Origin: a virus
Lineage: Duplodnaviria > Caudoviricetes
Virus record (IMG/VR): IMGVR_UViG_3300024259_000011
Length of the DNA stretch: 64,000 nt
Direction: 5' to 3' (one strand)
The notes under the pieces: model-generated
The model's database searches: none
Told to the model about the DNA's origin: nothing
Seen by the model: only the letters and a program-made list of their open reading frames with translations
In this document: positions 41 to 40,777 of the stretch, in pieces
How the letters are laid out: each line of letters begins with the position of its first letter
Position numbering within the stretch: position 1 is the first letter of the stretch
Translations under genes and position numbers: made by a program

Positions 41-90
41 CTATTAGACGTATGGCGCCTTCATTTTATTCAATGAAAAGCAAAGAAAGT
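41..90 (-). promoter_or_regulatory. Repeated promoter cassette copy 1 (TTGAATAAAA-N-ACGTCTAA; ECF-sigma-like)
   Basis: Minus strand reads TTGAATAAAATGAAGGCGCCATACGTCTAATAG, followed by an AGAGAGG RBS and an ATG at 12 (gene runs off the window). Bases 58-90 are identical to 3108-3140. Confidence 0.7.
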
Positions 91-100
91 TGATCTTTTT

Positions 101-181
101 TTATGTCAGCGCCAATGTGGTGATAAGTGCCACCATAAATACCGTGACCATCATTCCAATGGTTAATAATATCGGCTTCAT
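101..181 (-). CDS. 26-aa hydrophobic peptide (single TM)
   Basis: MKPILLTIGMMVTVFMVALITTLALT*; start overlaps the stop of 178..375 and has AAGGAG upstream. Below the ORF-track cutoff. Confidence 0.5.
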   Translation of the reverse strand: MKPILLTIGMMVTVFMVALITTLALT

Positions 182-375
182 TTTACTCCTTCGCTCAACA
201 TGACAAGGTTACTAATCATGGCATAGCCCTCGCTCTTATATTCCGTAGCCGGAAGCCCATCCACATACCTGATCCAGACACCCTCTCGCTCCCACTCCTC
301 GGTGCGAACCACGATAGCCATACGATGTTTGTTCTTGCAGTGTGGCGCGATCTTTACTAAGTCACCTACTTTCAC
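178..375 (-). CDS. SH3/KOW-like miniprotein, MKVGDLV family
   Basis: GTG start, GGAGG RBS inside the upstream gene's end; VGDLV first strand plus beta-rich pattern. Confidence 0.8.
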   Translation of the reverse strand: MKVGDLVKIAPHCKNKHRMAIVVRTEEWEREGVWIRYVDGLPATEYKSEGYAMISNLVMLSEGVK

Positions 376-556
376 TGATAACCTCCAACCACTTCACGGG
401 TTCGTAATCAATGCCGCCGCCATCATTCCAAACGACTCCAACCCTAGGACGCCACCGATCTATCCGAGTGACCACATCGACAACGACACCGACACCACTG
501 AACACGATCATGCCATTCATGCCTGTGTCCATTGTTACCAAGTCACCGACTTTCAT
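362..556 (-). CDS. SH3/KOW-like miniprotein, MKVGDLV family
   Basis: MKVGDLVT...WLEVISESR*; 14-nt overlap with next gene. Confidence 0.85.
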   Translation of the reverse strand: MKVGDLVTMDTGMNGMIVFSGVGVVVDVVTRIDRWRPRVGVVWNDGGGIDYEPVKWLEVISESR

Positions 557-623
557 TCTTTTTGTCCGTCCTGTGCCAAACTATCCTCATTTGGCTCTAT
601 GTGGTTACCTTTTGTATCTTTAT

Positions 624-854
624 TCATTCTTCGTTCTTCAATAGAATTAGATCATCAAGATAATCATCACTTGTGTCTTCTGTCAACCCCATTGGGTTTC
701 CTTCTGGGATAGGTTTATCCCACTTTACTATGACGGAGTAAACACCTCTAGGTGGTCCCTCCATCTCTTCGATTTCTATAATTGTTCCTGTACCTCTGTT
801 GATACCACTATCAGGGTAGAACAAAGCATCACGAACTCTGGCACCAACTTTCAT
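624..854 (-). CDS. SH3/KOW-like miniprotein, MKVG family
   Basis: MKVGARVRD...GTIIEI...VIVKWD...LILL; same strand pattern as neighbours. Confidence 0.8.
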   Translation of the reverse strand: MKVGARVRDALFYPDSGINRGTGTIIEIEEMEGPPRGVYSVIVKWDKPIPEGNPMGLTEDTSDDYLDDLILLKNEE

Positions 855-883
855 ATTACTCTCACCAAATCACCGACTTGCAT
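851..883 (-). pseudogene. Truncated 10-codon remnant of an MQVGDLV module
   Basis: ATG CAA GTC GGT GAT TTG GTG AGA GTA ATA TGA (MQVGDLVRVI*); stop overlaps the ATG of 624..854. Confidence 0.6.
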
Positions 884-1070
884 TGATCACCTTCGCGCTG
901 TCTTTGATAGCATAGCCAACCAATGTCTTTCGACCATCAATAATAATCTCATAATCAGGTGGATAGCCAGCACCACTAGGGATCGCGGCAATAATCAAAC
1001 CGATGTTAGAGCGAAAGCCATACACACGGCAAGCTAGACTATTCATCCGAATCAAATCACCGACTTGCAC
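870..1070 (-). CDS. SH3/KOW-like miniprotein (true start GTG at 1070)
   Basis: MQVGDLIRM...KVINASR*; GGAGGT RBS before GTG 1070. The track's longer 870..1190 N-terminus overlaps another real gene. Confidence 0.8.
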   Translation of the reverse strand: MQVGDLIRMNSLACRVYGFRSNIGLIIAAIPSGAGYPPDYEIIIDGRKTLVGYAIKDSAKVINASR

Positions 1071-1212
1071 TAAGCACCTCCAAGAGTTTCGGCAGCATGT
1101 GGAAAACCATGCCATGCTGCGGGAAGCTGACGAGCCAGCCGTCACTTTCCCACGCCAAGATGACACCGATGTTACCATCCATAGTCTCACGTACCAAACT
1201 GCCGACTTTCAT
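1057..1212 (-). CDS. SH3/KOW-like miniprotein, 51 aa (not in ORF track)
   Basis: Translated by hand: MKVGSLVRETMDGNIGVILAWESDGWLVSFPQHGMVFHMLPKLLEVLSASR*. Confidence 0.8.
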   Translation of the reverse strand: MKVGSLVRETMDGNIGVILAWESDGWLVSFPQHGMVFHMLPKLLEVLSASR

Positions 1213-1562
1213 TAGTATGTCACCGAACGCTGAACGTGCAGAGCCTCAAAGCCACGCCCTCGGATATCGGCGGGATCATCCAACCCCTCGCCAAGACGAA
1301 TGAAGCGATAACCTTCGTCCTCATCCTCATCGTCGCACCAGTCCATAAAATCTTGAACCGCTTCCACTTCTTCATAGCCTTCATACCACTTCGCACCGTA
1401 CCAGTGGAACAGCACGCCGCCTTCACCATCATAATCATCTACGCGACGATCAGCGTGCTGATAACACATGGCGCGAGTCTCGGGACTCTTAGCCAGAGTG
1501 ACTAGAAACTGGGGCAGTACCTCTTTGCTGACTGCCAAAACTACTTCAGAACGATAACCCAT
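1212..1562 (-). CDS. Hypothetical phage protein (MGYRSEV type), first gene after promoter cassette
   Basis: 116-aa ORF with GAGAGG RBS directly after promoter copy 2. Confidence 0.75.
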   Translation of the reverse strand: MGYRSEVVLAVSKEVLPQFLVTLAKSPETRAMCYQHADRRVDDYDGEGGVLFHWYGAKWYEGYEEVEAVQDFMDWCDDEDEDEGYRFIRLGEGLDDPADIRGRGFEALHVQRSVTY

Positions 1563-1587
1563 GCAAACCTCTCTCTTTGTTGCTCAT

Positions 1588-1620
1588 ATATTAGACGTAC
1601 AGCCTTCATGTTTTATTCAA
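1588..1620 (-). promoter_or_regulatory. Repeated promoter cassette copy 2
   Basis: TTGAATAAAACATGAAGGCTGTACGTCTAATAT, then GAGCAACAAAGAGAGAGG RBS. Confidence 0.7.
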
Positions 1621-1894
1621 TCTTTCTTAAAGAAAGTTGATCTTTCTGCGCACTTACGATCTCCAAGCTGTTCATGGCAAAGTTTCTTATCAACCTGCCA
1701 TTGAACCAAAGCACATCAACCGTGCCGCCTCCGAGTAGTTTTGACCAGTTGCCGTTACGACTGACCTTCATTTCCTCTGGCAAATCACGAATCGCTACAA
1801 CCATTCCCATCACTCTAGACGGAGGCATGGGCTTGCCGCCCTTGTGCAGATTTATTACTCTGTTACCTTGTCTTACTAAATCACCGACTTTCAT
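1613..1894 (-). CDS. SH3/KOW-like miniprotein, MKVGDLV family
   Basis: MKVGDLVRQ...GMVVAI...VDVLW...LEIVSA; C-terminus reads into the promoter cassette. Confidence 0.8.
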   Translation of the reverse strand: MKVGDLVRQGNRVINLHKGGKPMPPSRVMGMVVAIRDLPEEMKVSRNGNWSKLLGGGTVDVLWFNGRLIRNFAMNSLEIVSAQKDQLSLRKIE

Positions 1895-2087
1895 TGATCA
1901 CCCTCAAGTGTGTACTTTTCTGCGTAATCGGGTAGGGCGCTGGAGCGCCCGATCCCATCCACAAAACTTTAACGTCGGTGTTGCCTGTGTACTTTCCAGT
2001 TTCGACAACCAGACCAACATCAATGGATAGACCTTTGCGCTCCCGCGCTGCCTGAAACGCATACGATACCAGATCACCTACTTGCAC
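1881..2087 (-). CDS. SH3/KOW-like miniprotein, MQVGDLV family
   Basis: MQVGDLVS...VGLVVE...VKVLW...LRVINESR*. Confidence 0.85.
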   Translation of the reverse strand: MQVGDLVSYAFQAARERKGLSIDVGLVVETGKYTGNTDVKVLWMGSGAPAPYPITQKSTHLRVINESR

Positions 2088-2250
2088 TGATCACCTCCAC
2101 ATCATCTGGGTCAGCAAGTTGTTCGCGTCCAATGCCCAGCAGGATTCTCCAATAATAAGAACCGCCCTCAAAATCGTAAGTTCCCACGATTATGCCTACG
2201 GCATATTGTCCCAGCTTCCTCTTTACTCTCACCAGATCACCGACTTTCAT
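2074..2250 (-). CDS. SH3/KOW-like miniprotein, 58 aa (not in ORF track)
   Basis: Translated by hand: MKVGDLVRVKRKLGQYAVGIIVGTYDFEGGSYYWRILLGIGREQLADPDDVEVISASR*. Confidence 0.85.
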   Translation of the reverse strand: MKVGDLVRVKRKLGQYAVGIIVGTYDFEGGSYYWRILLGIGREQLADPDDVEVISASR

Positions 2251-2440
2251 TGATTATCTCCAGTTGATCCAGCGGGGTTGAATACTCTGCCCCATCCCAC
2301 AACACATATCCGCGAGTGATAACCGTCCAGCCTTCCGAATCCAGATCGGTAGCGTAAGTATCATCACGGACGTAAATGCCCACAACAGATTTCTCGTAGC
2401 CCGTTGGAAAGTTTACTAATACCAAATCACCGACTTGCAT
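2237..2440 (-). CDS. SH3/KOW-like miniprotein, MQVGDLV family
   Basis: MQVGDLVLV...VGIYV...YVLWDG...LEIINESR*. Confidence 0.85.
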   Translation of the reverse strand: MQVGDLVLVNFPTGYEKSVVGIYVRDDTYATDLDSEGWTVITRGYVLWDGAEYSTPLDQLEIINESR

Positions 2441-2609
2441 TGATTACCTCCAGCAAGTGCGGGAACACATACCTTGAACCGCTAGCAAACAAAACTTTGG
2501 CAGCGGTGGAAGGTGAATCGGACACAGGTGAGGTGAAGCCGATCACCAAGCCAACAGATCCATCATGATCCATAAGAGTCGGCGCTTTTACTAAATCACC
2601 GACTTTCAC
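2427..2609 (-). CDS. SH3/KOW-like miniprotein, MKVGDLV family
   Basis: MKVGDLVK...VGLVIG...KVLF...LEVINASR*. Confidence 0.85.
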   Translation of the reverse strand: MKVGDLVKAPTLMDHDGSVGLVIGFTSPVSDSPSTAAKVLFASGSRYVFPHLLEVINASR

Positions 2610-3064
2610 GATACCAACTCCAAGTCACGGGTGCTCAAGCCGACGCTGCCGATGTTCTGAACGCCAAGCCAACTAATGTCACAAACATCACTGCGTTCCT
2701 TGACAACCAAGCCAGTCACACCAGCAAAGCCCCAACGCATAGCACGCTTGTTCTGCTTGCCACGAACCAGTTGACCCACGCTGAACTTGCAAGGTGGTGC
2801 CTTCATCGAGTGAAGCAGTTGTGTCAGGTTACTGCGGAACGAACCAGCAAAGTAATCGCTCTGCATATCAGAGTGATCGTTAGAGCGACGGCGATGCCAG
2901 TTGCATGCATCGTGTTCCATCGCAGAGGCTCTGTCACCGGAGTGACCGTTCGCAAGGAACGATCCGATCTCGTTTTCGTATCCCCACCAGAATCGGCTTC
3001 CGTCATACTGGACTACGACACCTAGGTACTTCTCGATCTTCTTGATTGCTGACTTGACTTTCAT
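2606..3064 (-). CDS. Hypothetical protein with C-terminal SH3/KOW-like domain
   Basis: C-terminal FSVGQLVRG...GLVV...ISW...LELVS*; first gene after promoter copy 3. Confidence 0.75.
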   Translation of the reverse strand: MKVKSAIKKIEKYLGVVVQYDGSRFWWGYENEIGSFLANGHSGDRASAMEHDACNWHRRRSNDHSDMQSDYFAGSFRSNLTQLLHSMKAPPCKFSVGQLVRGKQNKRAMRWGFAGVTGLVVKERSDVCDISWLGVQNIGSVGLSTRDLELVS

Positions 3065-3088
3065 GCTTGAACCTCTCTTTGTTGCTCA

Positions 3089-3140
3089 CTATATTAGACG
3101 TGCTAGCCCTTCATTTTATTCAATGAAAAGCAAAGAAAGT
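3089..3140 (-). promoter_or_regulatory. Repeated promoter cassette copy 3
   Basis: TTGAATAAAATGAAGGGCTAGCACGTCTAATATAG, then AACAAAGAGAGG RBS. Confidence 0.7.
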
Positions 3141-3386
3141 CTAAAAAAGATCGCGAATGTGCGTAAACTTCTTGGGCGGGTCCACAACGATAAGCGCGCC
3201 GCGATTGCGATCCGACTCCTCATAAGCATCTAAATCAAATCTAGATAGAACCTGTCTCACCAAATCCTTCATTCTCTGAGAGTTTCCAGTAATGATTTTG
3301 AATGGGGCTTCGGTTCTATGAGCAAAGGCTATCACTTGTGTTTCTACGTTCTCATGTTTTACGCCATGCAAGTCAAGCGTTTTCAT
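3141..3386 (-). CDS. Stand-alone Smr (small MutS-related) domain protein
   Basis: MKTLDLHG...FKIITGNS...G pattern; start moved to ATG 3386 to avoid overlap with the methylase. Confidence 0.65.
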   Translation of the reverse strand: MKTLDLHGVKHENVETQVIAFAHRTEAPFKIITGNSQRMKDLVRQVLSRFDLDAYEESDRNRGALIVVDPPKKFTHIRDLF

Positions 3387-3390
3387 TTTG

Positions 3391-4275
3391 TCATCCAAGG
3401 TTAATGTTTCCAATCATCAGAATCTCTCTCGCTTTCTTTGCGGTGAAGGTTCCATCGTCATGCTTCTTTCTGCGTCCTGCCGTATAGGTCACGTCAAAAT
3501 ACACTATCTTGTTGTCGCCTGTCCGGTCCTCAAAGAACCCATCGCCCACATCACGGTTAGACATGATGGCGTATGCACCCAACTCCTTAGAATCATTGAG
3601 GAATCCAATCACTCGCTGTTGCATGCTGTCATCAAAGTTCACACCATACTGAGTGAATGAGCCGCGATAGGGAGGGTCGAGAAACACAAAGGCATTTTGA
3701 TGGGTCAGTTCATGGCGCGTCTTTGCCAACACACGCCCAAAGTCACCGGACAGCAGCGTGCATCGTTGCAGTGCATGGTGCCACTCCATCACATTATCAC
3801 GGTCATAAACCTTGTCTTTCTGGTTCAACAGCCCGCTCGGAGTACCAAACCGACCATTCGTATTCTGGTTGATCTGCCAGATACCATTGAATCCTGTTTT
3901 CATCAGAAAGTATAATGTTGCAGCCTCGTCAGTCTCCGTCCACTTCTCATAATCGTAGGCATGTTCGTGTCGTAAAGCATAATAAAGCTCTTTGCGCTCG
4001 GGTTTGTCCAATGGCAGATAGCGATCCGAAAGATGGTCTAGCCTGTCGATGAACAACTCAACATCATGCTTGACAGCAGTATAAATCTGCATGATTGACT
4101 CATTGTAATCATTCAGTACAAACTTAGCCTTTGGGTTCTTCTGGTATGCCCACACAAACATAGCGCCTGCACCGACGAACGGTTCAACATACAGGTCAAA
4201 CGTATCTGGTAGATGTTCGGTATACTTTTTAATCATGCGAGTCTTACCACCCGCCCACATAAACAATGGCTTCAT
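3391..4275 (-). CDS. dam: DNA adenine methyltransferase, Dam/D12 class
   Basis: N-terminal WAGGK, EPFVGAGA (motif I), DPPY (motif IV). Confidence 0.9.
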   Translation of the reverse strand: MKPLFMWAGGKTRMIKKYTEHLPDTFDLYVEPFVGAGAMFVWAYQKNPKAKFVLNDYNESIMQIYTAVKHDVELFIDRLDHLSDRYLPLDKPERKELYYALRHEHAYDYEKWTETDEAATLYFLMKTGFNGIWQINQNTNGRFGTPSGLLNQKDKVYDRDNVMEWHHALQRCTLLSGDFGRVLAKTRHELTHQNAFVFLDPPYRGSFTQYGVNFDDSMQQRVIGFLNDSKELGAYAIMSNRDVGDGFFEDRTGDNKIVYFDVTYTAGRRKKHDDGTFTAKKAREILMIGNINLG

Positions 4276-4769
4276 ACAATCTCCATGATTCTTGCAGCGA
4301 CCTCACTAATGTTCGCATGCTTAGGTTCCATTATAGCATAGTTTGACTCACAAAGCAATAGGTTGATCTCATCTTGATACTTCTGACCTTGGAACGTTTT
4401 ACCTGAAAACACTAGAAAGAAAGGGCTGTCCACTGTGTTGTGTTCTTCTCTCACCTTGCGTTGCAGTGGCTCAGACAAGAATTTATACACACGCTCATGG
4501 GCGTTGCCTCCATTGTTCCCTGCTTTGTTCTCAATGAAAAGGCACTTGCCTGTCTTTGTATTGGTGACCTTGGAATCCAGCTTGATCCCCCTGCCCTCGG
4601 TATAGATCACCAGCTTTGGCGGCTGGTGGTGGACCGTGTAATGACTTGGCAAATGCTTTGCCAACGCAAATGCGAAAGTTTCTTCGCCAGCGGTGCCAAC
4701 TTGATTAGCTTCAAGCTGCCAGTTTTCCCTGCTAGACAAATAATGCGGCGGCTGATCATGGTAGCTCAC
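4272..4769 (-). CDS. PD-(D/E)xK nuclease, MunI-like type II restriction endonuclease candidate
   Basis: GEETF...LD...FIENK...GNAHER; the GNAHER stretch recalls the MunI family; coupled (ATGA overlap) to the methylase. Confidence 0.55.
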   Translation of the reverse strand: MSYHDQPPHYLSSRENWQLEANQVGTAGEETFAFALAKHLPSHYTVHHQPPKLVIYTEGRGIKLDSKVTNTKTGKCLFIENKAGNNGGNAHERVYKFLSEPLQRKVREEHNTVDSPFFLVFSGKTFQGQKYQDEINLLLCESNYAIMEPKHANISEVAARIMEIV

Positions 4770-5004
4770 TTGTAGCTCCTAAGTTTAATGTTTCTTCGTG
4801 TACATCGAGCACTTCACCAGTTTGCAGCATGCTGATTGTCCATCCTATCTCGGATGGCCACGCCTCGGGACACAGGCTATACATCTTAAATTCCTCTCCA
4901 GTCCTGATAGGATCTGGAATCTCACACTGCGCTAGCAACAGTACTGGACCTTGATCCAGCCAGTTATATACTCGCCCTGCCTTATATTTTGTCTTGTGTT
5001 TCAC
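4756..5004 (-). CDS. Hypothetical protein (GTG start at 5004)
   Basis: Start sits in a junction half-repeat GGAGGTTATCAGTGAAA. Confidence 0.6.
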   Translation of the reverse strand: MKHKTKYKAGRVYNWLDQGPVLLLAQCEIPDPIRTGEEFKMYSLCPEAWPSEIGWTISMLQTGEVLDVHEETLNLGATSELP

Positions 5005-5212
5005 TGATAACCTCCAAATGTTTGAACCCAAAGTCTGACCATGGCGTAGTTCGACCGGCGAATTTCACCGGTGCAATCCAGCGAATTCGGGCATGCTGAT
5101 CGCCATCAGAGCCGCATGCAGTATACTGAACAACCAGACCAACTGCTCCGATAAAATCTTTATAAACGTAACCCTTTGAGGGTCCAACATATTTGACTAA
5201 TGTGCCGATCAT
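4982..5212 (-). CDS. SH3/KOW-like miniprotein (MIGTLV...LEVISE)
   Basis: Same strand pattern and EVISE end as the array members. Confidence 0.7.
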   Translation of the reverse strand: MIGTLVKYVGPSKGYVYKDFIGAVGLVVQYTACGSDGDQHARIRWIAPVKFAGRTTPWSDFGFKHLEVISETQDKI

Positions 5213-5517
5213 GACTTATTCACCATCAACAGGGGAAAACCTGCGGGCAAGCCGCCCTCCACCATGCCGCCATGCTTCGCGATAACGTTAATGATGACTT
5301 GACGCGGAACCCAGCCATACACAGTATCGGTCGGCTTGTTCGGCGACTCACAGTACTCCATTAGCATCGGCTCACGCTCGCTCGGGAACCCGACCTCTGC
5401 TTCTGTGTAAAAGTCTGCGTTGTTCACGCGGGGCGTGCAGTATGATCCCTCATGGGCTTGCACACTCATGCTGAAGCCATCGGCGCATACTATCAAACTA
5501 TTTCTCTTTGTGCTCAT
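5209..5517 (-). CDS. Hypothetical phage protein
   Basis: MSTKRNSLIVCADGFSMSVQA...; likely start ATG 5517. Confidence 0.65.
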   Translation of the reverse strand: MSTKRNSLIVCADGFSMSVQAHEGSYCTPRVNNADFYTEAEVGFPSEREPMLMEYCESPNKPTDTVYGWVPRQVIINVIAKHGGMVEGGLPAGFPLLMVNKS

Positions 5518-5737
5518 TCTTCTCTGCCTTTTCCAAGAACATTTCATGGAAATTAAGTGTTTGTCCGTTTGTCATCCACAGCTTATAGATGGATGTAAAC
5601 TTTATGTGTGGGTCGCGCCGTGGACCCATTTGATCTTTTACTTCTTCAATGATTAAGCCCATACGACTATCGGGCAACTTCTCATCATGCGTACCATCCT
5701 TGATACGCACCAAATCTCCAACCTTAAACTTTTTCAT
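5498..5737 (-). CDS. SH3/KOW-like miniprotein (MKKFKVGDLV)
   Basis: KVGDLVRI...GLII...YKLW...; start ATG 5737. Confidence 0.75.
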   Translation of the reverse strand: MKKFKVGDLVRIKDGTHDEKLPDSRMGLIIEEVKDQMGPRRDPHIKFTSIYKLWMTNGQTLNFHEMFLEKAEKNEHKEK

Positions 5738-5979
5738 CAGCTTTTCTCTACCGTGGCTAGCCGACAATCCGCAACGTTGCAAAGAACGATGTTGCTAAAA
5801 TCAGTCAACGGACGAACCTTTGCAATCGAAAGTCCCACCTCAACAATGATACCGTGCGACTCTTTTTCTTCGTATTCCTGCGGGTTCGATGAGGCATAGT
5901 GGGTAAATGCCACCATGTCGCCAGCACTGAATCGCGGTTCAGTTGAAAGGTTATTAATATTAGCTTTGTGCTTCTTCAT
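5737..5979 (-). CDS. SH3/KOW-like miniprotein (FSAGDMV)
   Basis: GDMVAF...GIIVEV...KVR pattern. Confidence 0.6.
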   Translation of the reverse strand: MKKHKANINNLSTEPRFSAGDMVAFTHYASSNPQEYEEKESHGIIVEVGLSIAKVRPLTDFSNIVLCNVADCRLATVEKS

Positions 5980-6226
5980 AGCCGCTTAGTAACTTCACAT
6001 TATGCGAATGCACATTGTAATAAGACCTGCCTTGCGACAAGACCTTGAGTATTTGATAGTACGGACTACAACCGTCTGGTAGGCTTCCGCCAGTCGAGAA
6101 AAGGTTAATACAGTGCCAGTGAGATGCCTTCAGCACAACTGCCTGCCCATTGGGGCATGGTATAAACATTTCTTTGTCCACATGCTGTACGTGGATCAGA
6201 TCTCCTTTCTGGTATGCTCTCTGCAC
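5960..6226 (-). CDS. SH3/KOW-like miniprotein (YQKGDLI), GTG start at 6226
   Basis: GGAGG RBS before GTG 6226; GDLIHV...AVVL...VKLL. Confidence 0.55.
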   Translation of the reverse strand: MQRAYQKGDLIHVQHVDKEMFIPCPNGQAVVLKASHWHCINLFSTGGSLPDGCSPYYQILKVLSQGRSYYNVHSHNVKLLSGYEEAQS

Positions 6227-6459
6227 TAAGCCTCCGCGATGATGCAACCGGGAACACTCACGATTGCCGAGAACAGATTCTCGATTTGGAAGCGCTCTGC
6301 CATGCCCTCTGGCGAGTCAGGATCATCAATGGCAGCGAGCTTTTCGACCGCCATCGCCCATACAGAGTGTTGAGTGACATTATCACCGAACTCAGCGGCT
6401 CGCACAATCGCAGCTTCAAAGGGAGTAAGATTAGTTTCGATTTCTTCCATGTTATTCAC
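6226..6459 (-). CDS. Hypothetical protein
   Basis: 77-aa ORF coupled to neighbours by stop/start overlaps. Confidence 0.6.
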   Translation of the reverse strand: MNNMEEIETNLTPFEAAIVRAAEFGDNVTQHSVWAMAVEKLAAIDDPDSPEGMAERFQIENLFSAIVSVPGCIIAEA

Positions 6460-6818
6460 CGTGCGTACACAACGCCATATGGGGTTACAGACTTTAGACC
6501 ATTCGCGCCGTCGTTGACGTATCCACGAATAGCGGAGTTGCCCTTTGTATAAGGGGCTTTATAGGTTGCAGCCTTAAAGATTGCACCATCGGACTTGCGA
6601 ACAAACCCATACACAGAGCACTGACGACCACCGCCATGCTCTACCGGATCTTGCTTGACAACCTTCCAATAAGTCCGACCGGGGTGGACGGCTATCTCGG
6701 GCGGTGTCAGCATCGCATAGTTTTTGGCGAAATGCTCATTGACCATGACCTGAACGCCCTTTACGAAGGTGTCAAAGGCATATTCAATTTCTTCTGGACT
6801 TCTCTTGTTAAGCTGCAT
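6456..6818 (-). CDS. Hypothetical phage protein (YWKVV...SVYGFV...GAIFKAATYKAP)
   Basis: AAGGAG RBS; first gene after promoter copy 4. Confidence 0.75.
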   Translation of the reverse strand: MQLNKRSPEEIEYAFDTFVKGVQVMVNEHFAKNYAMLTPPEIAVHPGRTYWKVVKQDPVEHGGGRQCSVYGFVRKSDGAIFKAATYKAPYTKGNSAIRGYVNDGANGLKSVTPYGVVYAR

Positions 6819-6842
6819 GTAACTCTCCTTTCTTTGTTGTTC

Positions 6843-6892
6843 ACTATATTAGACGTATGGGGCTTTCATTTTATTCAATGAAAAGCAAAGAA
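6843..6892 (-). promoter_or_regulatory. Repeated promoter cassette copy 4
   Basis: TTGAATAAAATGAAAGCCCCATACGTCTAATATAG. Confidence 0.7.
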
Positions 6893-6929
6893 AAATCAAC
6901 TTTTTCCGGAGGCTCTTTGTCGTCGGAGG

Positions 6930-7229
6930 TTAATAATCATCACGCTTAACTGCGAGGATGATGGCATCAATATAGCCGGGTGGCACTTTGAGGGTAACCC
7001 TGCGCCACCCCATCCACATCGGTCCAGTATCTATGAGATCCCATATGCCCTCCTCGATTTGCTCACGGACATTCTCTCTTTCGATGATCAGTTCCAAGAG
7101 GTTGCCCCCATCGTCCGAAACAAACCTGATGTGAAACGGTTGATCATAGACCCTATTGATATGTTTCTCTAAAGCTGCTTTGGCTTCTGCTTTAGAAGCC
7201 TTCTCTCCACTGAAAAAAATGTTCGCCAT
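6930..7229 (-). CDS. Hypothetical protein
   Basis: 99 aa, AAGGAG RBS. Confidence 0.7.
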   Translation of the reverse strand: MANIFFSGEKASKAEAKAALEKHINRVYDQPFHIRFVSDDGGNLLELIIERENVREQIEEGIWDLIDTGPMWMGWRRVTLKVPPGYIDAIILAVKRDDY

Positions 7230-7289
7230 ACTCTCTCCTTATAGCGTTTACGCCCATATAATATATAGAAGAAAGCACGCGAATAAGGG

Positions 7290-7748
7290 CTAGAATGGGA
7301 TGATTAGTTCGTTGAAATTTGTCGTTTGCGGGAATAAGTACCAAACTTCGGGTGGCCAAAGGTTAATGTCGGGATATAGCTCCTTAACCATCGCAACATG
7401 ATTCAAGGCTTCCTCCATTTCCGAAAGGCTTTTTGCAAAGCTGTTCTTGTGTAACCAGCCCACAGTTAGATCGCATGCGATTCGGGTGCCACCAAAGTTC
7501 ATGCCTATCTCAAAGTCGTTAGATTTGAGAAAGGTTAGTTTTGTATCTCTTATTCTGTTGTCAAGGTGAATGGAACCCGTGGTGCGGATCCTTTCCCTTT
7601 TATCCGGTAGAACAATGTCGCCAGCGTACCAGTGCCGTATGACATTCTCTACTGTTTCTAGGTTTGTCTCATAAAATAGTGGATGCGTACCTCGGAACGT
7701 ACCAGCCATCTGCGTGTTCTTGAGCCATACTTTTGTTATCTTGCTCAT
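7290..7748 (-). CDS. Hypothetical protein
   Basis: 152 aa, ATGA overlap with upstream gene. Confidence 0.65.
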   Translation of the reverse strand: MSKITKVWLKNTQMAGTFRGTHPLFYETNLETVENVIRHWYAGDIVLPDKRERIRTTGSIHLDNRIRDTKLTFLKSNDFEIGMNFGGTRIACDLTVGWLHKNSFAKSLSEMEEALNHVAMVKELYPDINLWPPEVWYLFPQTTNFNELIIPF

Positions 7749-8116
7749 TCTCTGTCCTGTGCTTTGCCCATAATTTTGAAAAACCGAGCCTCGTACCAGT
7801 CTTTATCAAAGATAGCGCCGTGCGCCTCGGTATACTTTAACATTTCTTGAACCGTAACTGCGTCAGGTGGATCTCCAGTCCACTCAAGCGTGTACTCGCT
7901 GTCGTACATCGGCACGGCAATATGCTTCGGCGCAAACTTTCCTTTTCGCATCCACTTGATTCGTACACATTCTTCATATCGTCTGTTCTTGTCGTCCCAT
8001 GGCGACTTGGCGCGCCACAAATAGCTGCGCTTGTCAATCACCAGACCAACAGTTTCATGCCCTCTACCACCTACATTATACCACACAAGATCGCCAATTT
8101 GCAACTGCTTTTTCAC
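7745..8116 (-). CDS. Extended SH3/KOW-like protein (LQIGDLVW)
   Basis: IGDLVW...VGLVI...VRIKW, with a long insertion. Confidence 0.7.
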   Translation of the reverse strand: MKKQLQIGDLVWYNVGGRGHETVGLVIDKRSYLWRAKSPWDDKNRRYEECVRIKWMRKGKFAPKHIAVPMYDSEYTLEWTGDPPDAVTVQEMLKYTEAHGAIFDKDWYEARFFKIMGKAQDRE

Positions 8117-8365
8117 TTATTTCCCGGCGCTTGACAGCACTTCAAATGCGTACTTGGATGTGTCTAACATATGATACTCGCATGAGCGTGGAATATAAAC
8201 CACGACTGTTGGCGAATCGTCATTAGCCACATCGACAATAAGACCGTAGCAATACACGGGATTGGCTGGCCAAACGCCGCCTTCATCGTCTGCCGAAAAG
8301 ACGGCATAGCTTATAACCCAACGAACAAAATCGCCGCGATGTACCTTTGGTTGTGTGAGTTGCAC
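8117..8365 (-). CDS. SH3/KOW-like miniprotein (HRGDFVRW...FEVLS)
   Basis: GDFVRW...GLIVDV...VVVY...FEVLSS. Confidence 0.65.
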   Translation of the reverse strand: MQLTQPKVHRGDFVRWVISYAVFSADDEGGVWPANPVYCYGLIVDVANDDSPTVVVYIPRSCEYHMLDTSKYAFEVLSSAGK

Positions 8366-8372
8366 ATAGTAA

Positions 8373-8495
8373 CTAGGCTTGCCGACTACACTTTCGGACC
8401 TTTCTCATTATTGAATCCACAAGTTCTTTAGCCTCTTTATCTGTCAGCGGAGGCACCGAGTTTCTAATCGCCTCGCGAATGTACCGATACTTCAT
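8373..8495 (-). CDS. Small hypothetical protein
   Basis: MKYRYIREAIRN...; AAAGAGA upstream; short. Confidence 0.35.
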   Translation of the reverse strand: MKYRYIREAIRNSVPPLTDKEAKELVDSIMRKVRKCSRQA

Positions 8496-8844
8496 TCTCT
8501 TTCTCCTCGTCATCGTCATCTTCAAGCCTTCTGCACAAGCCATAAGTTTTGCTTCGCTCAAGTGCTTTGAAATAGTTGGGGGGGAACACATTAACAACTG
8601 CCCTCTTCACGTTTGATTGGTTGCACCCGTCAAAAGAGCCACTTGCCTTTTGTACTGCGGTGCTATAACCCCACGCTCGTTTTAGAATATACCAAACAGC
8701 CAGCTTTGCAGCCTCTATCTCGTTCTCCGATAACTTAACTATGTTCTCCTTCTTACCGACCAATACCGAGTCCGGTACTGAATTGGCGAAAGCTCTCACT
8801 TGAATGTTTAATAATTGTTCTGGGTTTAATCTGAAACGTGGCAC
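8464..8844 (-). CDS. Hypothetical protein
   Basis: GTG start with AAGGAG RBS after promoter copy 5. Confidence 0.7.
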   Translation of the reverse strand: MPRFRLNPEQLLNIQVRAFANSVPDSVLVGKKENIVKLSENEIEAAKLAVWYILKRAWGYSTAVQKASGSFDGCNQSNVKRAVVNVFPPNYFKALERSKTYGLCRRLEDDDDEEKENEVSVHSRGD

Positions 8845-8865
8845 TGTTCTCCTTGTTGCGTCTAC

Positions 8866-8899
8866 TGTCTTAGACGTATCAGGGCTTAGATTTATTCAA
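8866..8899 (-). promoter_or_regulatory. Repeated promoter cassette copy 5 (divergent)
   Basis: TTGAATAAATCTAAGCCCTGATACGTCTAAGAC; same spacing as the other copies. Confidence 0.6.
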
Positions 8900-8940
8900 T
8901 CAAGAGGGGAAATTTTTCCGGAAAGTTTCCGCTGAGAGAT

Positions 8941-9597: not shown

Positions 9598-9646
9598 GTT
9601 ATTTCTCGTTTAGCTAACGTACACTAAGTAGTTTCTCAGAGATTCT

Positions 9647-9892
9647 TCATTCCGATTTTTGTCTTACAATGACGTGTGTTTCGCCATATCTTTCATAAAT
9701 TTCGTCAATAAACCACATATGATGGATGTTATCTTTCCATGGAAAGCTCACCTCGTACATACACGGCTTGTCGCCGTACTTTCTCTTCAATGTCTCGCAG
9801 TCACCTTCAAGCAACACATCTTTAATATTCTCGGGATAAATCTCTTTTATGAAGATAGTTTTCCCCAATGTATTCTTGGAGGTTTTTCCCAC
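9647..9892 (-). CDS. Hypothetical protein
   Basis: 81 aa, TAGTG overlap with upstream gene. Confidence 0.5.
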   Translation of the reverse strand: MGKTSKNTLGKTIFIKEIYPENIKDVLLEGDCETLKRKYGDKPCMYEVSFPWKDNIHHMWFIDEIYERYGETHVIVRQKSE

Positions 9893-10686: not shown

Positions 10687-10689
10687 AAG

Positions 10690-15593: not shown

Positions 15594-15614
15594 TATAAAT
15601 AGTTTGTTAAAGGG

Positions 15615-20529: not shown

Positions 20530-20554
20530 TACACACCTCTTGTTTATATTCTAT

Positions 20555-20583
20555 ATTATAACCCAACTTAGCAGGGTTGTCAA
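20555..20583 (-). promoter_or_regulatory. Consensus sigma70 promoter upstream of groEL
   Basis: TTGACA-17 bp-TATAAT, perfect match. Confidence 0.85.
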
Positions 20584-20589
20584 ATGTTA

Positions 20590-22326: not shown

Positions 22327-22333
22327 GCTCTAA

Positions 22334-37548: not shown

Positions 37549-38944
37549 TGTTACTTTTACTCCTGTTTTTTTCTTTATAATTCTTGTATTTTTCTTTCAA
37601 GTTCTCTGCTTGTTTCTTAGCAGAGTTCTCTATAATTTCTCCCGGCGTTTCACCAGTTGGCTCTAGAACCTTAATCTTTACAGACCCCGGGTCCATAAAT
37701 ATTGGATAGACGAGTCCATCTGGTCCATTTCGATTTTTAGCGACGAAAATTCGCCCTGTGTTGTTGTTTTTGTCATCAACGGTTCGCGATACAGAGAAAA
37801 TAAAGTCTGCCACAAAGCACTTATTGAAAGCTTCGCTGATCGACTCCATTGTAATAACCTCTGCATTCAATCCCGACCTGTTTGTTTGAGATGCGGTCCA
37901 CACAGGACACTTGTTTTCTTGTGCGATTCCACGTAGCTCTTCATAGATAGATTCCAGTTCATTTCTTTTCTCTTTCTGATATGTAACTGGTCGCAAAAGA
38001 TCTCCGTAGTCAACTATAATAATATCCGGCTTGATGTCTCGCTTGCGCAGCTTCTCTAAGTGAGTTGATAGCGTGCGCGTGCTAGCAGATTTTGTCGGAT
38101 ACTCTTTAATAATTAGTCTGCCTTCGATCTCTTGGACCGCTTCATACACTAATTCTTTCAATTGAAACAAATCATTTAGCGGTATACCGGTTAGGCAAGA
38201 GTCGTAGCGGTTTCCAATAGAAGCTTCAGACAGCTCTAGGGTGTAGTGAACGACCGTTTTGCCATTTTTGATCGCTTGCGCTCCCAAGTGGGTGAGTACC
38301 ATTGATTTACCAGCGCCAGTCGGGGCAATAACAACCCCTAGTTCACCAGAGCCTAGACCACCCTTGCAAAGATCATCCATTTCGCTCCAACCCATCGAGA
38401 TCGCATTGCGAGTCTTAAGCTGGAAGCGGGCTTCAAAATCTTTTATGTAATCATGACCAAAGTTGTTGTCACTGCCCAGCTTGAGGGCAGTATTGATTAC
38501 TGAGCTAATCTCGTCGAATGAAGAACTCTGAAGCAACTTCACAGACTCCATCATTGCTTCTTTAAGCTTCTGCTTTCGGCAGAAGTCTAACGACACTTCT
38601 TTAATATATCCGCGACCCTCAACCTCAGAATTGCAAATACGAGCAAAGTAGGCGCGGACCTGCTGCTTGTCGGTTTCTGTCTCATTCTCCAGTTCAGAGC
38701 GCAAGACAGTCATCATGATCTTCTGCGTTGGGTGTACGTTGTACTTCTCGCGGTACCCAAATACCTGCTTGACGAAAGCGCGAAGGTATGATAGTTCTAA
38801 AAAGTTAATGTCCAGCACCTCAGCGATCTGATCCGCGAACGGACGATCCTCCAAGACAAGTTGACATAGCCCTTCTTGAAAACCTTTTCCGAATTTGCTG
38901 AAACTAGGCTGATCTGACATTTCTTTTCCCATGGTAGAGATCAT
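37541..38944 (-). CDS. dnaB: DnaB/gp41-like replicative helicase
   Basis: IAPTGAGKS, TLEL, IIVDYGDLL, ASQTNR, VAKNRNG. Confidence 0.9.
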   Translation of the reverse strand: MISTMGKEMSDQPSFSKFGKGFQEGLCQLVLEDRPFADQIAEVLDINFLELSYLRAFVKQVFGYREKYNVHPTQKIMMTVLRSELENETETDKQQVRAYFARICNSEVEGRGYIKEVSLDFCRKQKLKEAMMESVKLLQSSSFDEISSVINTALKLGSDNNFGHDYIKDFEARFQLKTRNAISMGWSEMDDLCKGGLGSGELGVVIAPTGAGKSMVLTHLGAQAIKNGKTVVHYTLELSEASIGNRYDSCLTGIPLNDLFQLKELVYEAVQEIEGRLIIKEYPTKSASTRTLSTHLEKLRKRDIKPDIIIVDYGDLLRPVTYQKEKRNELESIYEELRGIAQENKCPVWTASQTNRSGLNAEVITMESISEAFNKCFVADFIFSVSRTVDDKNNNTGRIFVAKNRNGPDGLVYPIFMDPGSVKIKVLEPTGETPGEIIENSAKKQAENLKEKYKNYKEKNRSKSNNV

Positions 38945-38954
38945 AACTCATTTG

Positions 38955-39920
38955 TCACTTATTGTCAACCACTATTCGTCTCATACACTGAAATAATGAC
39001 GACCAATCAAATGTGCCGAAACCATCTTCGATCATCATGCCTTGAACGCCAGTTTTATTAAAAAGTTGTTCTGCGTCTTCGATAGCAAACCGAACCTTGG
39101 ACTTGCCCTGCGGGGATAGCGATGGCGCATACAACTGCATAAGCTTATAGTTCTGCTCCACCACGGCGCGTCCCTCCAGTATTGAACTGAACGCCTTGAG
39201 GTTTGACTCAGCCTCATCGCAGAAATCCATCAGTCGATCAATCGTACAGAACTCCTCATCCGCAAAGAAAGGAAAACGCTTCTTGATTGTACCAAGACCA
39301 ACGCCATTAATGCCGGGGAGATTGTCTGACGTGTCGCCAGCAATAGCCCGGGCTAGCGCCATGTTGTTCGGGTGAATGCTGTACTCTTCGACCAACCGCT
39401 TCGTGTTCATGACCTGCTTCTGAATCGGACGAAGTACTACGGTATTGTCATCACATAGCTGAAAAAAGTCTTTGTCGCTAGAAACGATAACCTTCTGCCA
39501 GTCGGCGAAACTGGAAAGCCTAGAGACAAACGCAATAACATCGTCGGCTTCTACTGCCGGAAGCATGGTCTGTGAGATAGGCATTTCGTTCAGGTACTCG
39601 ATCAAGCGAGTCTGCTGCCATACCTTATTCTTCAACTCTTCATTCTCGGTGAGGGTCCGAATATCACGATTCAAGCGAATGGGCTTGCGACCCTCTTTGT
39701 AGCCTTTGTTGACCGCCTTACGCTTTTGAGAGCCGCCAGCGCCATCCCATGCGATCACGATATGATCTGGCTTGGTTTCACGCACCAGCTTCTGAAGGAT
39801 CTTAAGGAACCCTTTTACTCCACCGATGGGCTGACCGTTGGTGGAGAGGCTAGGGTCTACGATATATGCACGAAAATACATATTTAGTGCGTCAATGATT
39901 AATACTCTTGGCTGGCTCAT
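38955..39920 (-). CDS. Stand-alone 5'-3' exonuclease/flap endonuclease (Pol I N-terminal/RNase H-like)
   Basis: LIIDA.N..FR, AWDG, EADDVI, SSDKDF.Q, GDTSDNLPGI.GVG. Confidence 0.93.
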   Translation of the reverse strand: MSQPRVLIIDALNMYFRAYIVDPSLSTNGQPIGGVKGFLKILQKLVRETKPDHIVIAWDGAGGSQKRKAVNKGYKEGRKPIRLNRDIRTLTENEELKNKVWQQTRLIEYLNEMPISQTMLPAVEADDVIAFVSRLSSFADWQKVIVSSDKDFFQLCDDNTVVLRPIQKQVMNTKRLVEEYSIHPNNMALARAIAGDTSDNLPGINGVGLGTIKKRFPFFADEEFCTIDRLMDFCDEAESNLKAFSSILEGRAVVEQNYKLMQLYAPSLSPQGKSKVRFAIEDAEQLFNKTGVQGMMIEDGFGTFDWSSLFQCMRRIVVDNK

Positions 39921-40312
39921 GGCTTATAGACTCCCATCGTCTTGTTGTCAATACTGTAAAATACGCGCTTGACGCCTACATGTCTAAGGACTGCAGCACA
40001 CATGTCGCAAGGTTTGGAAAGCCTAAGCTCTCCACCCTTACCGATGCGGCAGACGTACATTGTAGCGCCCATTGTTTTCTTGCGGTCCAGACCCAAGACG
40101 CAACCTAGCTCTGCATGGTGCGTGGCATGACCGCAGTTTCGCTGGCGAAAGCGATTCCCGAAAGAAGCATGCCTGTTCTTATTCGTGGAAAGTCCAATAA
40201 TATTGGAGCCTCGCAACAAGAGCGCGCCATGGCGATAGTCTTCGTTACTGGAACTATTTGCCATGCGAGCAGCTAGCACCATATATCTCTTGTGTCGTCC
40301 GGACAGCTTCAT
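39917..40312 (-). CDS. Cytidine/dCMP deaminase-fold protein
   Basis: HAE and SKPC..C zinc motifs; start ATG 40312. Confidence 0.8.
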   Translation of the reverse strand: MKLSGRHKRYMVLAARMANSSSNEDYRHGALLLRGSNIIGLSTNKNRHASFGNRFRQRNCGHATHHAELGCVLGLDRKKTMGATMYVCRIGKGGELRLSKPCDMCAAVLRHVGVKRVFYSIDNKTMGVYKP

Positions 40313-40324
40313 AAAATAATAAAT

Positions 40325-40362
40325 AAGGGTGCCTTCGGAGAGAGAGTACCCTTCCCGAAGGC
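40325..40362 (-). other. Two mutually exclusive hairpins before the deaminase gene
   Basis: GCCTTCGG/CCGAAGGC stem; alternative AAGGGT/ACCCTT pairing. Confidence 0.4.
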
Positions 40363-40377
40363 GTATTATGTCGCTAA

Positions 40378-40713
40378 TCAGCGATGGCGGCGATGTGCCG
40401 GGGCGCGGCGGACCCAACGTCCGGACACCCAATGTCGGTTACGACCGTAACCTACCCAATGACCGGGCGCCCATCGCGCATTGTTATGCGTACGAGCAGC
40501 AGGTCGATTAGGTCCAAAGTCGCGACCGTGAACCGGATGCGACCAGTGAGCCCGAAACACACGGGTAGCAGGAACCCACGTCCATGCAACAGTCACAGTA
40601 GGATGACCTACTGCGGCAGTAGCACGGGCGTTTGGACAATGCTGGTTGTGTGCGTTGGCAGATTGCGGGACTGCTAATGCAGCCACCGCAGCGAGCGTGA
40701 TAAGGAATTTCAT
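40378..40713 (-). CDS. Secreted protein with WxxGxW repeats
   Basis: Signal peptide MKFLITLAAVAALAVPQSANA; WAPGHW, WVSGRW; AGGAG RBS. Confidence 0.75.
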   Translation of the reverse strand: MKFLITLAAVAALAVPQSANAHNQHCPNARATAAVGHPTVTVAWTWVPATRVFRAHWSHPVHGRDFGPNRPAARTHNNARWAPGHWVGYGRNRHWVSGRWVRRAPAHRRHR

Positions 40714-40740
40714 ATTATTTCTCCTTCCTTCTTTGTTGTT

Positions 40741-40777
40741 CACTATGTTAGACGTATGAGGGCTAAGTTTTATTCAC
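40741..40777 (-). promoter_or_regulatory. Repeated promoter cassette copy 6
   Basis: GTGAATAAAACTTAGCCCTCATACGTCTAACATAGTG; overlaps the recA stop. Confidence 0.65.

What the first reader, a model, noticed from the sequence alone, without database searches (positions are those of the whole stretch)
41..40777. Six copies of a promoter/RBS cassette with an ECF-sigma-like signature
Seen: TGAATA-N16-CGTCTAA with invariant spacing at 41-90, 1588-1620, 3089-3140, 6843-6892, 8866-8899 and 40741-40777. Each is followed by an A-rich AACAAAG leader and a strong SD; copies 1 and 3 share 33 identical bp (58-90 = 3108-3140). Established: ECF sigma promoters typically carry CGT in the -10, e.g. B. subtilis SigM/SigW TGAAAC-N16-CGT, and repeated promoter cassettes mediate modular shuffling in T4-type phages (PeSL elements). 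Inference: the accessory genes are read by a host or phage ECF-type sigma, separately from the perfect sigma70 promoters used for groEL, ssb and others, and the cassette may serve as a second recombination repeat.
Basis: partly seen in the sequence, partly recalled or inferred. Interest (0 to 1): 0.7.

Follow-up and report, generated by a model that had tools for sequence, protein, structure and literature searches.

The report
ECF-type promoter array in marine phage
An abundant uncultured ocean phage drives a block of small accessory genes from at least twelve copies of a promoter matching those read by bacterial envelope-stress (ECF) sigma factors, yet no such sigma gene was found in the phage DNA examined, so it probably borrows the host's.

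Summary
Six exact TGAATAAA-N13-ACGTCTAA sites lie on the gene (minus) strand, each 25-34 nt before a start codon, and there are no degenerate copies.

- Other assemblies of the same phage (99.9% identical) continue the array past the window start. That gives 11 copies in about 15 kb, plus one after recA.
- The boxes are invariant in six related IMG/VR contigs, while the spacer sequence varies and its length is 15 or 16.
It equals the 5'-RACE-mapped Sinorhizobium ECF26 promoter GAATAAA-N14-CGTCTAA and the Neisseria sigmaE -10 box CGTCTAAH.
- In bacterial MAGs the same 16 bases sit directly upstream of ECF sigma genes and envelope-protein genes.
- A complete sister phage has sigma70 early promoters at orthologous positions, so the promoter class was replaced.
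- No ECF sigma gene was found in the window, the relatives or an 85%-complete relative. A host RpoE/AlgU-like sigma is therefore the likeliest reader, but this is unproven because no RNA data exist.
- A recombination role is only weakly supported.

The parts
44..72 (-). Cassette c1 core: TGAATAAA-N13-ACGTCTAA
   Evidence: Exact match. The leader and start codon at 10-12 run off the window. In three other assemblies of the same phage the sequence after this leader differs.
1591..1619 (-). Cassette c2 core
   Evidence: Exact match. It drives ORF 1212-1562. The G011 ortholog of that ORF has a sigma70 promoter instead.
3094..3122 (-). Cassette c3 core
   Evidence: Exact match. Orthologous sites in G001 and G002 keep both boxes with a spacer one base shorter.
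6849..6877 (-). Cassette c4 core
   Evidence: Exact match. Conserved at the orthologous site in G001 and G002.
8870..8898 (-). Cassette c5 core, first of the array in the direction of transcription
   Evidence: Exact match. The orthologous site is kept in G003, G002, G001 (one mismatch) and the distant G005 at 3004.
40748..40776 (-). Cassette c6 core, isolated copy overlapping the recA stop codon
   Evidence: Exact match. Kept in G004 (N16) and, by position and near-identical flanks, in G001:47924 (N15); G003:32159 (N15) was not mapped.
1212..1562 (-). Gene driven by c2 (116 aa, acidic, no family)
   Evidence: Start codon 28 nt after CGTCTAA. No Pfam or PHROG hit.
2606..3064 (-). Gene driven by c3 (152 aa, no family)
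6456..6818 (-). Gene driven by c4 (120 aa, DUF7717 / phrog_5014)
8464..8844 (-). Gene driven by c5 (126 aa, GTG start, no family)
40378..40713 (-). Gene driven by c6: secreted His/Arg/Trp-rich protein with W-x-P-G-H-W repeats
   Evidence: Signal peptide visible. A profile of four bacterial proteins that sit behind the same motif ranks this ORF and its G001 and G005 orthologs as the top 3 of 5917 phage ORFs (E 1.3e-4, 2.6e-7 and 0.004).
20530..20589 (-). Contrast: consensus sigma70 promoter (TTGACA-N17-TATAAT) before groEL

Best explanation
The cassettes are promoters of the ECF (group 4 sigma) type. TGAATAAA is the -35 box and (A)CGTCTAA the -10 box, 16 (sometimes 15) bases lie between TGAATA and CGTCTAA, and an A/T-rich tract sits upstream. 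Transcription would start about 6-8 nt after CGTCTAA, giving a short purine-rich leader with a strong Shine-Dalgarno. Together they make a roughly 15-kb array of small accessory genes, plus one secreted-protein gene after recA, into a regulon separate from the sigma70 and late (ACTATTTA) promoter classes. Such a sigma is present at a basal level and is released further by envelope damage such as infection itself. Shown here: the motif, its conservation pattern, its identity to mapped bacterial ECF promoters, its association with ECF sigma genes in bacteria, and the replacement of sigma70 promoters. Inferred: that it is transcribed, the start site, the identity of the sigma, and the link to envelope stress.
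For: 1) Two invariant boxes flank a spacer that varies in sequence and is 16 or 15 bases long. This holds in 19 distinct instances from the window and relatives, and at orthologous sites. Every copy in the related contigs is on the gene strand and the reversed-pattern control gives 0. Within this phage there are 11 copies on the gene strand and none on the other strand.
2) The motif has the same boxes and spacing as the 5'-RACE-mapped S. meliloti RpoE1/RpoE3 (ECF26) promoter of SMc01022, GAATAAA-N14-CGTCTAA. The rpoE4 promoter is GGAATA-N16-CGTCT (PMC6180224).
3) The Neisseria sigmaE -10 consensus is CGTCTAAH, with the start site 6 nt downstream and an upstream AT-rich UP element (PMC2893595).
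4) In a scan of bacterial species genomes, the 16-base motif lies directly upstream of ECF sigma genes in three MAGs (Kiritimatiellia, Lentisphaerales, one unclassified). It lies near ECF sigma genes in three more, and directly upstream of a group-3 sigma gene (regions 1.2-4) in one.
5) The ECF sigma next to the motif in the delta-proteobacterial MAG L192 is closest in the PDB to 6in7 chain B and E. coli sigmaE, 1or7 (E 1e-33 and 8e-29).
6) In delta-like and PVC/Hydrogenedentota MAGs, 28 of 30 hits are intergenic and 22 of 30 face a gene within 170 nt. In other taxa the figures are 35 and 16 of 90. Many of the downstream genes inspected in these MAGs encode secreted proteins or lipoproteins.
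7) The phage gene behind c6 belongs to the same repeat-protein family as four bacterial genes that sit behind the same motif.
8) The sigma70 scan of 1-9700 finds no more sites than chance and none at the cassettes.
9) The complete sister phage G011 is syntenic but uses TTGACA-N17-TGcTATATT promoters in the equivalent region.
10) No ECF sigma was found by Pfam in the window ORFs examined. Six-frame searches of G001-G006 found none either; G005 is 85% complete and carries the motif. A profile of the motif-linked bacterial sigmas also found nothing, best phage E 0.02 and that in motif-less G011.
Against: There is no transcript evidence of any kind. The host is unknown, so no host sigma with this specificity has been shown. 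Phage sigmas are often too divergent for Pfam. Host ECF sigmas are normally held by anti-sigma factors, which makes them an odd choice for genes sitting where sister phages have early promoters. The first base of the -35 box is always T in the phage, whereas S. meliloti ECF26 promoters usually have G. In G005 the c6-type gene follows recA without a cassette, so that gene and the promoter are not strictly linked.
Confidence: 0.55

Rival explanations
1. The cassettes are ECF-type promoters, but they are read by a phage-encoded sigma. This would be either a divergent protein not recognised by profiles or a gene in the unread part of the genome. The array would then be a middle class switched on after early sigma70 transcription, as in phiEco32.
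For: Phage sigmas are often unrecognisable by Pfam (PMC7826278). About 128 kb of this genome was not read. The phage has many ORFs with no family. A phage sigma would explain timing without needing host stress.
Against: No sigma region 2 or 4_2 hit occurs in the window, G001-G004 or G006. G005, which is 85% complete, has only the gp55-like late sigma. A profile of the motif-linked bacterial sigmas finds nothing in about 560 kb of phage DNA. The gp55-like sigma and the small sigma4-like protein are also present in relatives that lack the motif. Genes shared by motif-bearing phages but absent from G011 are a thymidine-kinase-like, a UV-endonuclease-like and a dCMP-deaminase gene, the c6 gene, a structural-region ORF and one partial unassigned ORF; none looks like a sigma. 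Because the boxes are identical to bacterial ECF promoters, a canonical and therefore detectable sigma would be expected.
Confidence: 0.22
2. The cassettes are sigma70-dependent promoters that need a phage activator or sigma appropriation, in the manner of T4 MotA/AsiA. TTGAAT would serve as a weak -35 box and the CGTCTAA region as an activator site.
For: TTGAAT matches TTGACA at 4 of 6 positions. One sigma70-like promoter in the window uses TTGAAT-N17-TATACT (61298-61363). The phage encodes a small zinc-ribbon plus sigma4-like protein at 24956-25210.
Against: At 17-bp spacing the -10 position reads CGTCTA, which has no TAnnnT. The sigma70 scan calls none of the cassettes. The sigma4-like protein also occurs in phages without the motif. 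This model does not explain the identity to bacterial ECF promoters or the position upstream of ECF sigma genes.
Confidence: 0.08
3. The repeat is not primarily a promoter. It could instead be an operator for a repressor, a recombination or homing site, or a mobile miniature element that spreads between intergenic regions.
For: Copies c1, c3 and c4 share identity beyond the boxes. One G001 copy combines the c1-type leader with the c2-type gene. Assemblies diverge or end at cassettes.
Against: Orientation is strictly with the genes, and the distance to start codons is fixed. The conservation pattern is two boxes with a free spacer, with no terminal inverted repeats or target duplications. Paralogous copies are not more alike than orthologous ones (0.50 and 0.47 within genomes against 0.46 between).
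Confidence: 0.05

Closest known systems
Sinorhizobium meliloti ECF26 promoters (RpoE1/RpoE3/RpoE4/RpoE6 regulons; PMC6180224, PMC3511301)
   Same: Same boxes and spacing. SMc01022 reads GAATAAA-N14-CGTCTAA, and rpoE4 reads GGAATA-N16-CGTCT. Start sites there were mapped by 5'-RACE.
   Different: Those are a few chromosomal promoters of sulfite or stress regulons, each with its sigma and anti-sigma genes alongside. Here at least 12 copies sit in a lytic phage with no sigma gene found. The phage always has T where ECF26 promoters usually have G before GAAT.
RpoE/AlgU-type envelope-stress sigma promoters (E. coli sigmaE; Neisseria sigmaE, PMC2893595)
   Same: The -10 box CGTCTAA(H) is identical to the Neisseria consensus. 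Both have an AT-rich tract upstream. The bacterial genes found behind the exact motif encode secreted proteins and lipoproteins, and in one MAG a group-3 sigma gene. From my own knowledge, that last case recalls sigmaE-dependent rpoH P3 of E. coli.
   Different: The -35 box differs: GAATAAA here, against GGAACTT in E. coli (my own knowledge) and GTMAGBWTT in Neisseria.
phiEco32 / phage 7-11 middle and late promoters read by a phage-encoded ECF sigma
   Same: A phage promoter class that depends on an ECF-family sigma and is separate from the sigma70 early promoters.
   Different: As I recall, those phages encode the sigma (gp36 in phiEco32). PMC5333181 reports that phage ECF promoters carry an extended -10 element and no recognisable -35 element. 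Here both boxes are canonical and no phage ECF sigma was found.
T4 early, middle and late promoter classes and PeSL elements
   Same: A T4-like phage with gp32-like, baseplate and sheath genes, a gp55-like late sigma, distinct promoter classes and a region of small accessory genes. Repeated promoter-plus-leader units could act as recombination substrates.
   Different: T4 early promoters are sigma70-type, as they are in the sister phage G011. Here that class is replaced by an ECF-type box pair. There is no stem-loop partner, and evidence for cassette-bounded shuffling is weak.

Membership tests
ECF (group 4) sigma-dependent promoter | Two boxes, with GAA in the -35 element and CGT(C) in the -10 element | tested here: met
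   TGAATAAA and ACGTCTAA are invariant in 19 instances. They match mapped ECF26 promoters and the Neisseria sigmaE -10 box.
ECF (group 4) sigma-dependent promoter | Rigid spacer of about 16 +/- 1 bases between the boxes | tested here: met
   N16 in all six window copies. N15 at some orthologous or paralogous sites in relatives. No N17 copy and nothing outside 15-16.
ECF (group 4) sigma-dependent promoter | Position and orientation of a promoter: intergenic, on the gene strand, a short distance from the start codon | tested here: met
   All copies are on the gene strand, 25-34 nt before start codons, and none is on the other strand.
ECF (group 4) sigma-dependent promoter | The same motif is used by ECF sigmas elsewhere, with autoregulation upstream of sigma genes | tested here: met
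   The motif lies directly upstream of Pfam-confirmed ECF sigma genes in L216 and L223 and of their close homolog in L214 (profile only), and near Pfam-confirmed ECF sigma genes in L192, L171 and L176. Five such genomes carry 13 copies in total, against 0 for the reversed control and about 0.4 expected by my estimate.
ECF (group 4) sigma-dependent promoter | Transcription starts 5-10 nt after the -10 box and depends on the ECF sigma | not testable with these tools
   No RNA run is listed for this DNA.
Phage-encoded ECF sigma system (phiEco32 type) | The phage genome encodes the ECF sigma | tested here: not met
   No region 2 plus region 4_2 protein in the window, in the 8.8 kb beyond its start, or in G001-G006. 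About 128 kb of this genome was unread, so absence is not proven.
Phage-encoded ECF sigma system (phiEco32 type) | Promoters with an extended -10 element and no -35 element | tested here: not met
   Both boxes are fully conserved here. The property of the phiEco32-type promoters comes from PMC5333181.
T4 PeSL-type recombination cassette | Repeated promoter units bound gene modules that differ between related genomes | tested here: inconclusive
   One leader/gene chimera between G001 and the window, and divergence of assemblies right after c1. However, the array is largely syntenic between the window and G001/G002, and the MunI-like/D12 module that G002 lacks is not bounded by cassettes.

The most novel reading that the evidence does not exclude
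A lineage of widespread marine T4-like phages has replaced the sigma70 early promoters of its accessory-gene region with copies of its host's envelope-stress (RpoE/AlgU-like ECF) promoter, and it encodes no sigma of its own for them. The damage that infection causes to the envelope, or a pre-existing stress state of the cell, would then switch on about 15 kb of phage genes. The phage would carry more copies of this promoter than a whole host genome does.
Probability: 0.4. Interest if true: 0.75.

Novelty: new variant of a known kind. Interest (0 to 1): 0.62.

Why it matters
Lytic phages are thought to start with host sigma70 promoters and then switch by means of their own factors. A large phage regulon wired to a host stress sigma would be a different logic, in which phage genes sense the physiological state of the cell or the injury of infection. 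The exact motif behaves as a promoter mainly in delta-proteobacteria-like and PVC-group genomes, so it also gives a testable clue to the unknown host of a phage present in at least 14 marine metagenome studies. The contrast between sister phages with sigma70 promoters and this lineage with ECF-type promoters at orthologous genes is a clean natural experiment in promoter-class turnover.

Tried and rejected
- **Megablast of window 1-12000 against the phage collection:** no match. The best tblastn identity for DnaE is 31%, so no annotated relative was available.
- **RNA evidence:** no RNA holder is listed for window 1-9500.
- **Whole genome of the window:** not held.
rejected as a lineage-specific factor because homologs occur in motif-less G010, G012, G013, G015 and G018. 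Its neighbours P0002 and P0003 have no sigma-like hits.
unlikely, since it is conserved at 62-69% identity in complete relatives that have 0 cassette copies.
- **Lineage-specific sigma:** the G005 ORFs shared with the window, G001 or G006 but absent from G011 are a thymidine-kinase-like, a UV-endonuclease-like and a dCMP-deaminase gene, the c6 gene, a structural-region ORF and one partial unassigned ORF.
- **sigma32 reading (TTGAA..CCCCAT):** rejected, because CCCCAT occurs in only one copy and at the wrong spacing.
- **sigma28 reading:** rejected by spacing.
- **Concerted evolution of cassettes:** not seen.
- **Mis-binned phage contigs among the bacterial hits:** none found.
- **Weak FecR_C hit in ORF 7290-7748 (E 0.023):** treated as noise.
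Full report
**The observation**

The pattern TGAATA-N16-CGTCTAA occurs exactly six times, at 44-72, 1591-1619, 3094-3122, 6849-6877, 8870-8898 and 40748-40776. All six are on the minus strand, which carries 81 of 91 ORFs. With up to 2 mismatches there are 8 matches against 1.33 expected, and no shuffle of 100 reaches 8.

Aligning the copies and profiling 18 full-length instances from the window and relatives shows two blocks at about 1.9 bits per position. These are (t)TGAATAAA and (t)ACGTCTAA, separated by 13 poorly conserved bases. A moderately conserved A/T-rich tract lies upstream, and an A/G-rich leader with a GGAG-type Shine-Dalgarno follows.

Start codons lie 25-34 nt after CGTCTAA. A relaxed scan (up to 3 mismatches, box gaps of 12-14) finds nothing but the six perfect sites. 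The stated 33-bp identity between 58-90 and 3108-3140 is exact.

**What the window is**

The window comes from a novel T4-like myovirus. It carries DnaE, a class II ribonucleotide reductase, DnaB, RecA, a gp32-like SSB, GroEL, two ClpP genes, and sheath and T4-type baseplate genes. It has no close relative among deposited phages.

Near-identical DNA is held by 20 marine metagenome runs from 14 named studies (3 runs name none). CheckV estimates for related IMG/VR contigs imply a genome of about 180-200 kb.

**Extent of the array**

Three other public assemblies of the same phage (99.9% identical over 11.5 kb) extend past the window start. They carry six more copies there, one of them with N15. 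The phage therefore has 11 cassettes on the gene strand within about 15 kb, none on the other strand, plus the isolated copy after recA.

Right after the c1 leader, the window differs from those three assemblies, and a 169-kb contig ends about 340 bp past c1. Assemblies therefore break or diverge at the repeats.

**Conservation in relatives**

Exact copies, always on the gene strand, occur in six related contigs:

| Contig | Copies |
|---|---|
| G001 | 9, plus one with 1 mismatch |
| G002 | 3 |
| G003 | 2 |
| G004 | 1 |
| G005 (distant; RecA 82% and sheath 48% identity to the window) | 4 |
| G006 (distant; late sigma 62% identical to G005's) | 1 |

The reversed-pattern control gives 0. At orthologous sites the boxes are kept while the spacer sequence changes, and its length may be 15 instead of 16. 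This is how a two-box promoter behaves. It is not how a structured RNA, a coding repeat or a transposon end behaves.

**What kind of promoter**

A sigma70 scan of 1-9700 finds no more sites than chance and none at the cassettes. At 17-bp spacing from TTGAAT the -10 position reads CGTCTA.

The literature gives close matches:
- The 5'-RACE-mapped S. meliloti promoter of SMc01022 (RpoE1/RpoE3, group ECF26) reads GAATAAA-N14-CGTCTAA, the same boxes and spacing as the phage motif.
- The autoregulated rpoE4 promoter reads GGAATA-N16-CGTCT (PMC6180224).
- The Neisseria sigmaE consensus -10 box is CGTCTAAH, with the start site 6 nt downstream and an AT-rich UP element upstream (PMC2893595).

**Independent test in bacterial genomes**

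- In three MAGs (Kiritimatiellia, Lentisphaerales, one unclassified) the motif lies immediately upstream of a roughly 190-aa ECF sigma gene; for two of them Pfam gave Sigma70_r2 (1.5e-11, 1.6e-10) and r4_2 (about 2e-15).
- In three more (a delta-proteobacterial MAG, Hydrogenedentota, Planctomycetaceae) an ECF sigma gene lies within about 1.3 kb.
- In a Verrucomicrobiota MAG it directly precedes a group-3 sigma gene with regions 1.2-4.
- The delta-MAG sigma is closest in the PDB to 6in7 chain B and to E. coli sigmaE, 1or7. From my own knowledge, 6in7 is P. aeruginosa AlgU.

Among hits from delta-like and PVC/Hydrogenedentota genomes, 28 of 30 are intergenic and 22 of 30 face a gene within 170 nt. 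In all other taxa the figures are 35 and 16 of 90. Many of the downstream genes inspected in these MAGs encode signal-peptide proteins or lipoproteins. Five such genomes hold 13 copies of GAATAAA-N13-15-CGTCTAA, against 0 for the reversed control and about 0.4 expected by my own estimate.

One recurrent bacterial target is a small secreted protein with W-V-P-G-H-W repeats. A profile built from four of these ranks, out of 5917 phage ORFs, exactly the gene behind cassette c6 and its orthologs as the top three.

**Who reads it**

- Pfam scans of 86 window ORFs (the ten largest individually and 76 smaller ones as a set, for which only the 25 top families of 41 were listed; 50 of them were also scanned one by one) give one sigma-like hit. 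It is an 84-aa zinc-ribbon plus sigma4-like protein at 24956-25210.
- Homologs of that protein occur in relatives that lack the motif.
- G005 has a 239-aa gp55-like late sigma (phrog_234, E 9e-5). It is conserved in at least 598 IMG/VR contigs.
- Twelve of those contigs were scanned, seven of them estimated at least 90% complete. Eleven have no cassette and G015 has one. This sigma pairs better with the ACTATTTA late motif, which is absent from the array.
- No sigma region 2 or 4_2 hit exists in G001-G006 beyond that protein.
- A profile of the motif-linked bacterial ECF sigmas finds nothing in about 560 kb of phage DNA.
- Genes specific to motif-bearing phages do not include any sigma-like ORF.

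G005 together with window 9.6-39 kb covers the pan-genome by synteny. A canonical phage ECF sigma is therefore unlikely, though about 128 kb of this phage's own DNA was not read.

**Promoter-class replacement**

The complete, syntenic sister phage G011 (203 kb, terminal repeats) has strong sigma70 promoters in the equivalent small-gene region. They read TTGACA-N17-TGcTATATT, often with extra upstream TTGACA-like boxes. One of them sits upstream of the ortholog of the gene that cassette c2 drives here. The cassette lineage has therefore exchanged the early promoter class.

**Recombination idea**

Some copies share identity beyond the boxes. One G001 copy joins a c1-type leader to the c2-type gene. 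Assemblies diverge at cassettes. Against this, paralogous copies are not more alike than orthologous ones, the array is largely syntenic between relatives, and the restriction-modification-like module missing from G002 is not bounded by cassettes. The role is possible but not shown.

**Verdict**

The ECF reading is well supported by comparison and can be made more specific: RpoE/AlgU-like or ECF26-type, not SigM/SigW-type. A host sigma is most likely, at roughly 0.55. A hidden phage sigma stands at about 0.2.

Noticed in passing
window 24956-25210 (-): An 84-aa protein with an N-terminal Cys cluster and a sigma-70 region-4 helix-turn-helix (Pfam E 1.4e-6; phrog_351). It is conserved as an 82-105-aa ORF across this phage family, including relatives without the cassette. 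Its function is unknown. It may be a co-factor of the gp55-like late sigma.
   Followed up: partly
window 9625-9632, 15596-15603, 18937-18944, 22331-22338, 24928-24935, 43038-43045, 48821-48828, 60082-60089, 62033-62040 (-); 28076-28083 and 38110-38117 lie inside ORFs: The strand-specific ACTA(T/A/C)TTA motif lies just upstream of many genes outside the cassette array and is absent from 1-9600. It is probably the late promoter read by the gp55-like sigma. The genome therefore appears to have three spatially separated promoter classes.
   Followed up: partly
about 20-45 nt upstream of cassettes c1-c4 (e.g. window 90-110, 1640-1665) and most copies in G001 and L265: A quasi-palindromic tract, AAAAAGATCAAC-TTT or its reverse complement AAAAAGTTGATC-TTTTT, occurs in both orientations and is often doubled. 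Most but not all copies contain a GATC site. The phage encodes a Dam-like and a D12-class methylase. It may be an UP element or a methylation-sensitive site.
   Followed up: no
window 1-13 versus L265-L267:11540-11570: The first 13 bases of the window, which are the start of the gene after c1, differ from three other assemblies of the same phage that are otherwise 99.9% identical. A 169-kb ENA contig ends about 340 bp past c1. The contig end probably reflects a repeat-induced assembly junction or a real variant at the cassette.
   Followed up: partly
window 3391-4769 (-): A MunI-like restriction endonuclease (Pfam E 5.8e-5) sits next to a D12-class adenine methylase inside the cassette-driven array. 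This stretch has no nucleotide-level counterpart in related contig G002, so it looks like a movable restriction-modification-like module.
   Followed up: no
L265:14254-17283 (2.7-5.7 kb beyond the window start): A DUF2201 (VWA/metallopeptidase-like) gene and a MoxR-like AAA ATPase gene are each preceded by cassettes. Two cassettes stand in tandem 94 nt apart before the ATPase.
   Followed up: no
G011 (IMGVR_UViG_3300013114_000447) 199523-203050 and 2581-4125: The early promoters of the sister phage carry two or three tandem TTGACA/TTTACAAC boxes upstream of an extended -10 element (TGcTATATT). This is an unusual repeated -35-like architecture.
   Followed up: no
window 24386-24883 (-): A 165-aa extremely acidic protein with a basic C-terminal tail lies next to the sigma4-like gene and behind a late-type motif. 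From my own knowledge it is reminiscent of RNAP- or clamp-binding co-activators such as T4 gp33. It has no family hit.
   Followed up: no
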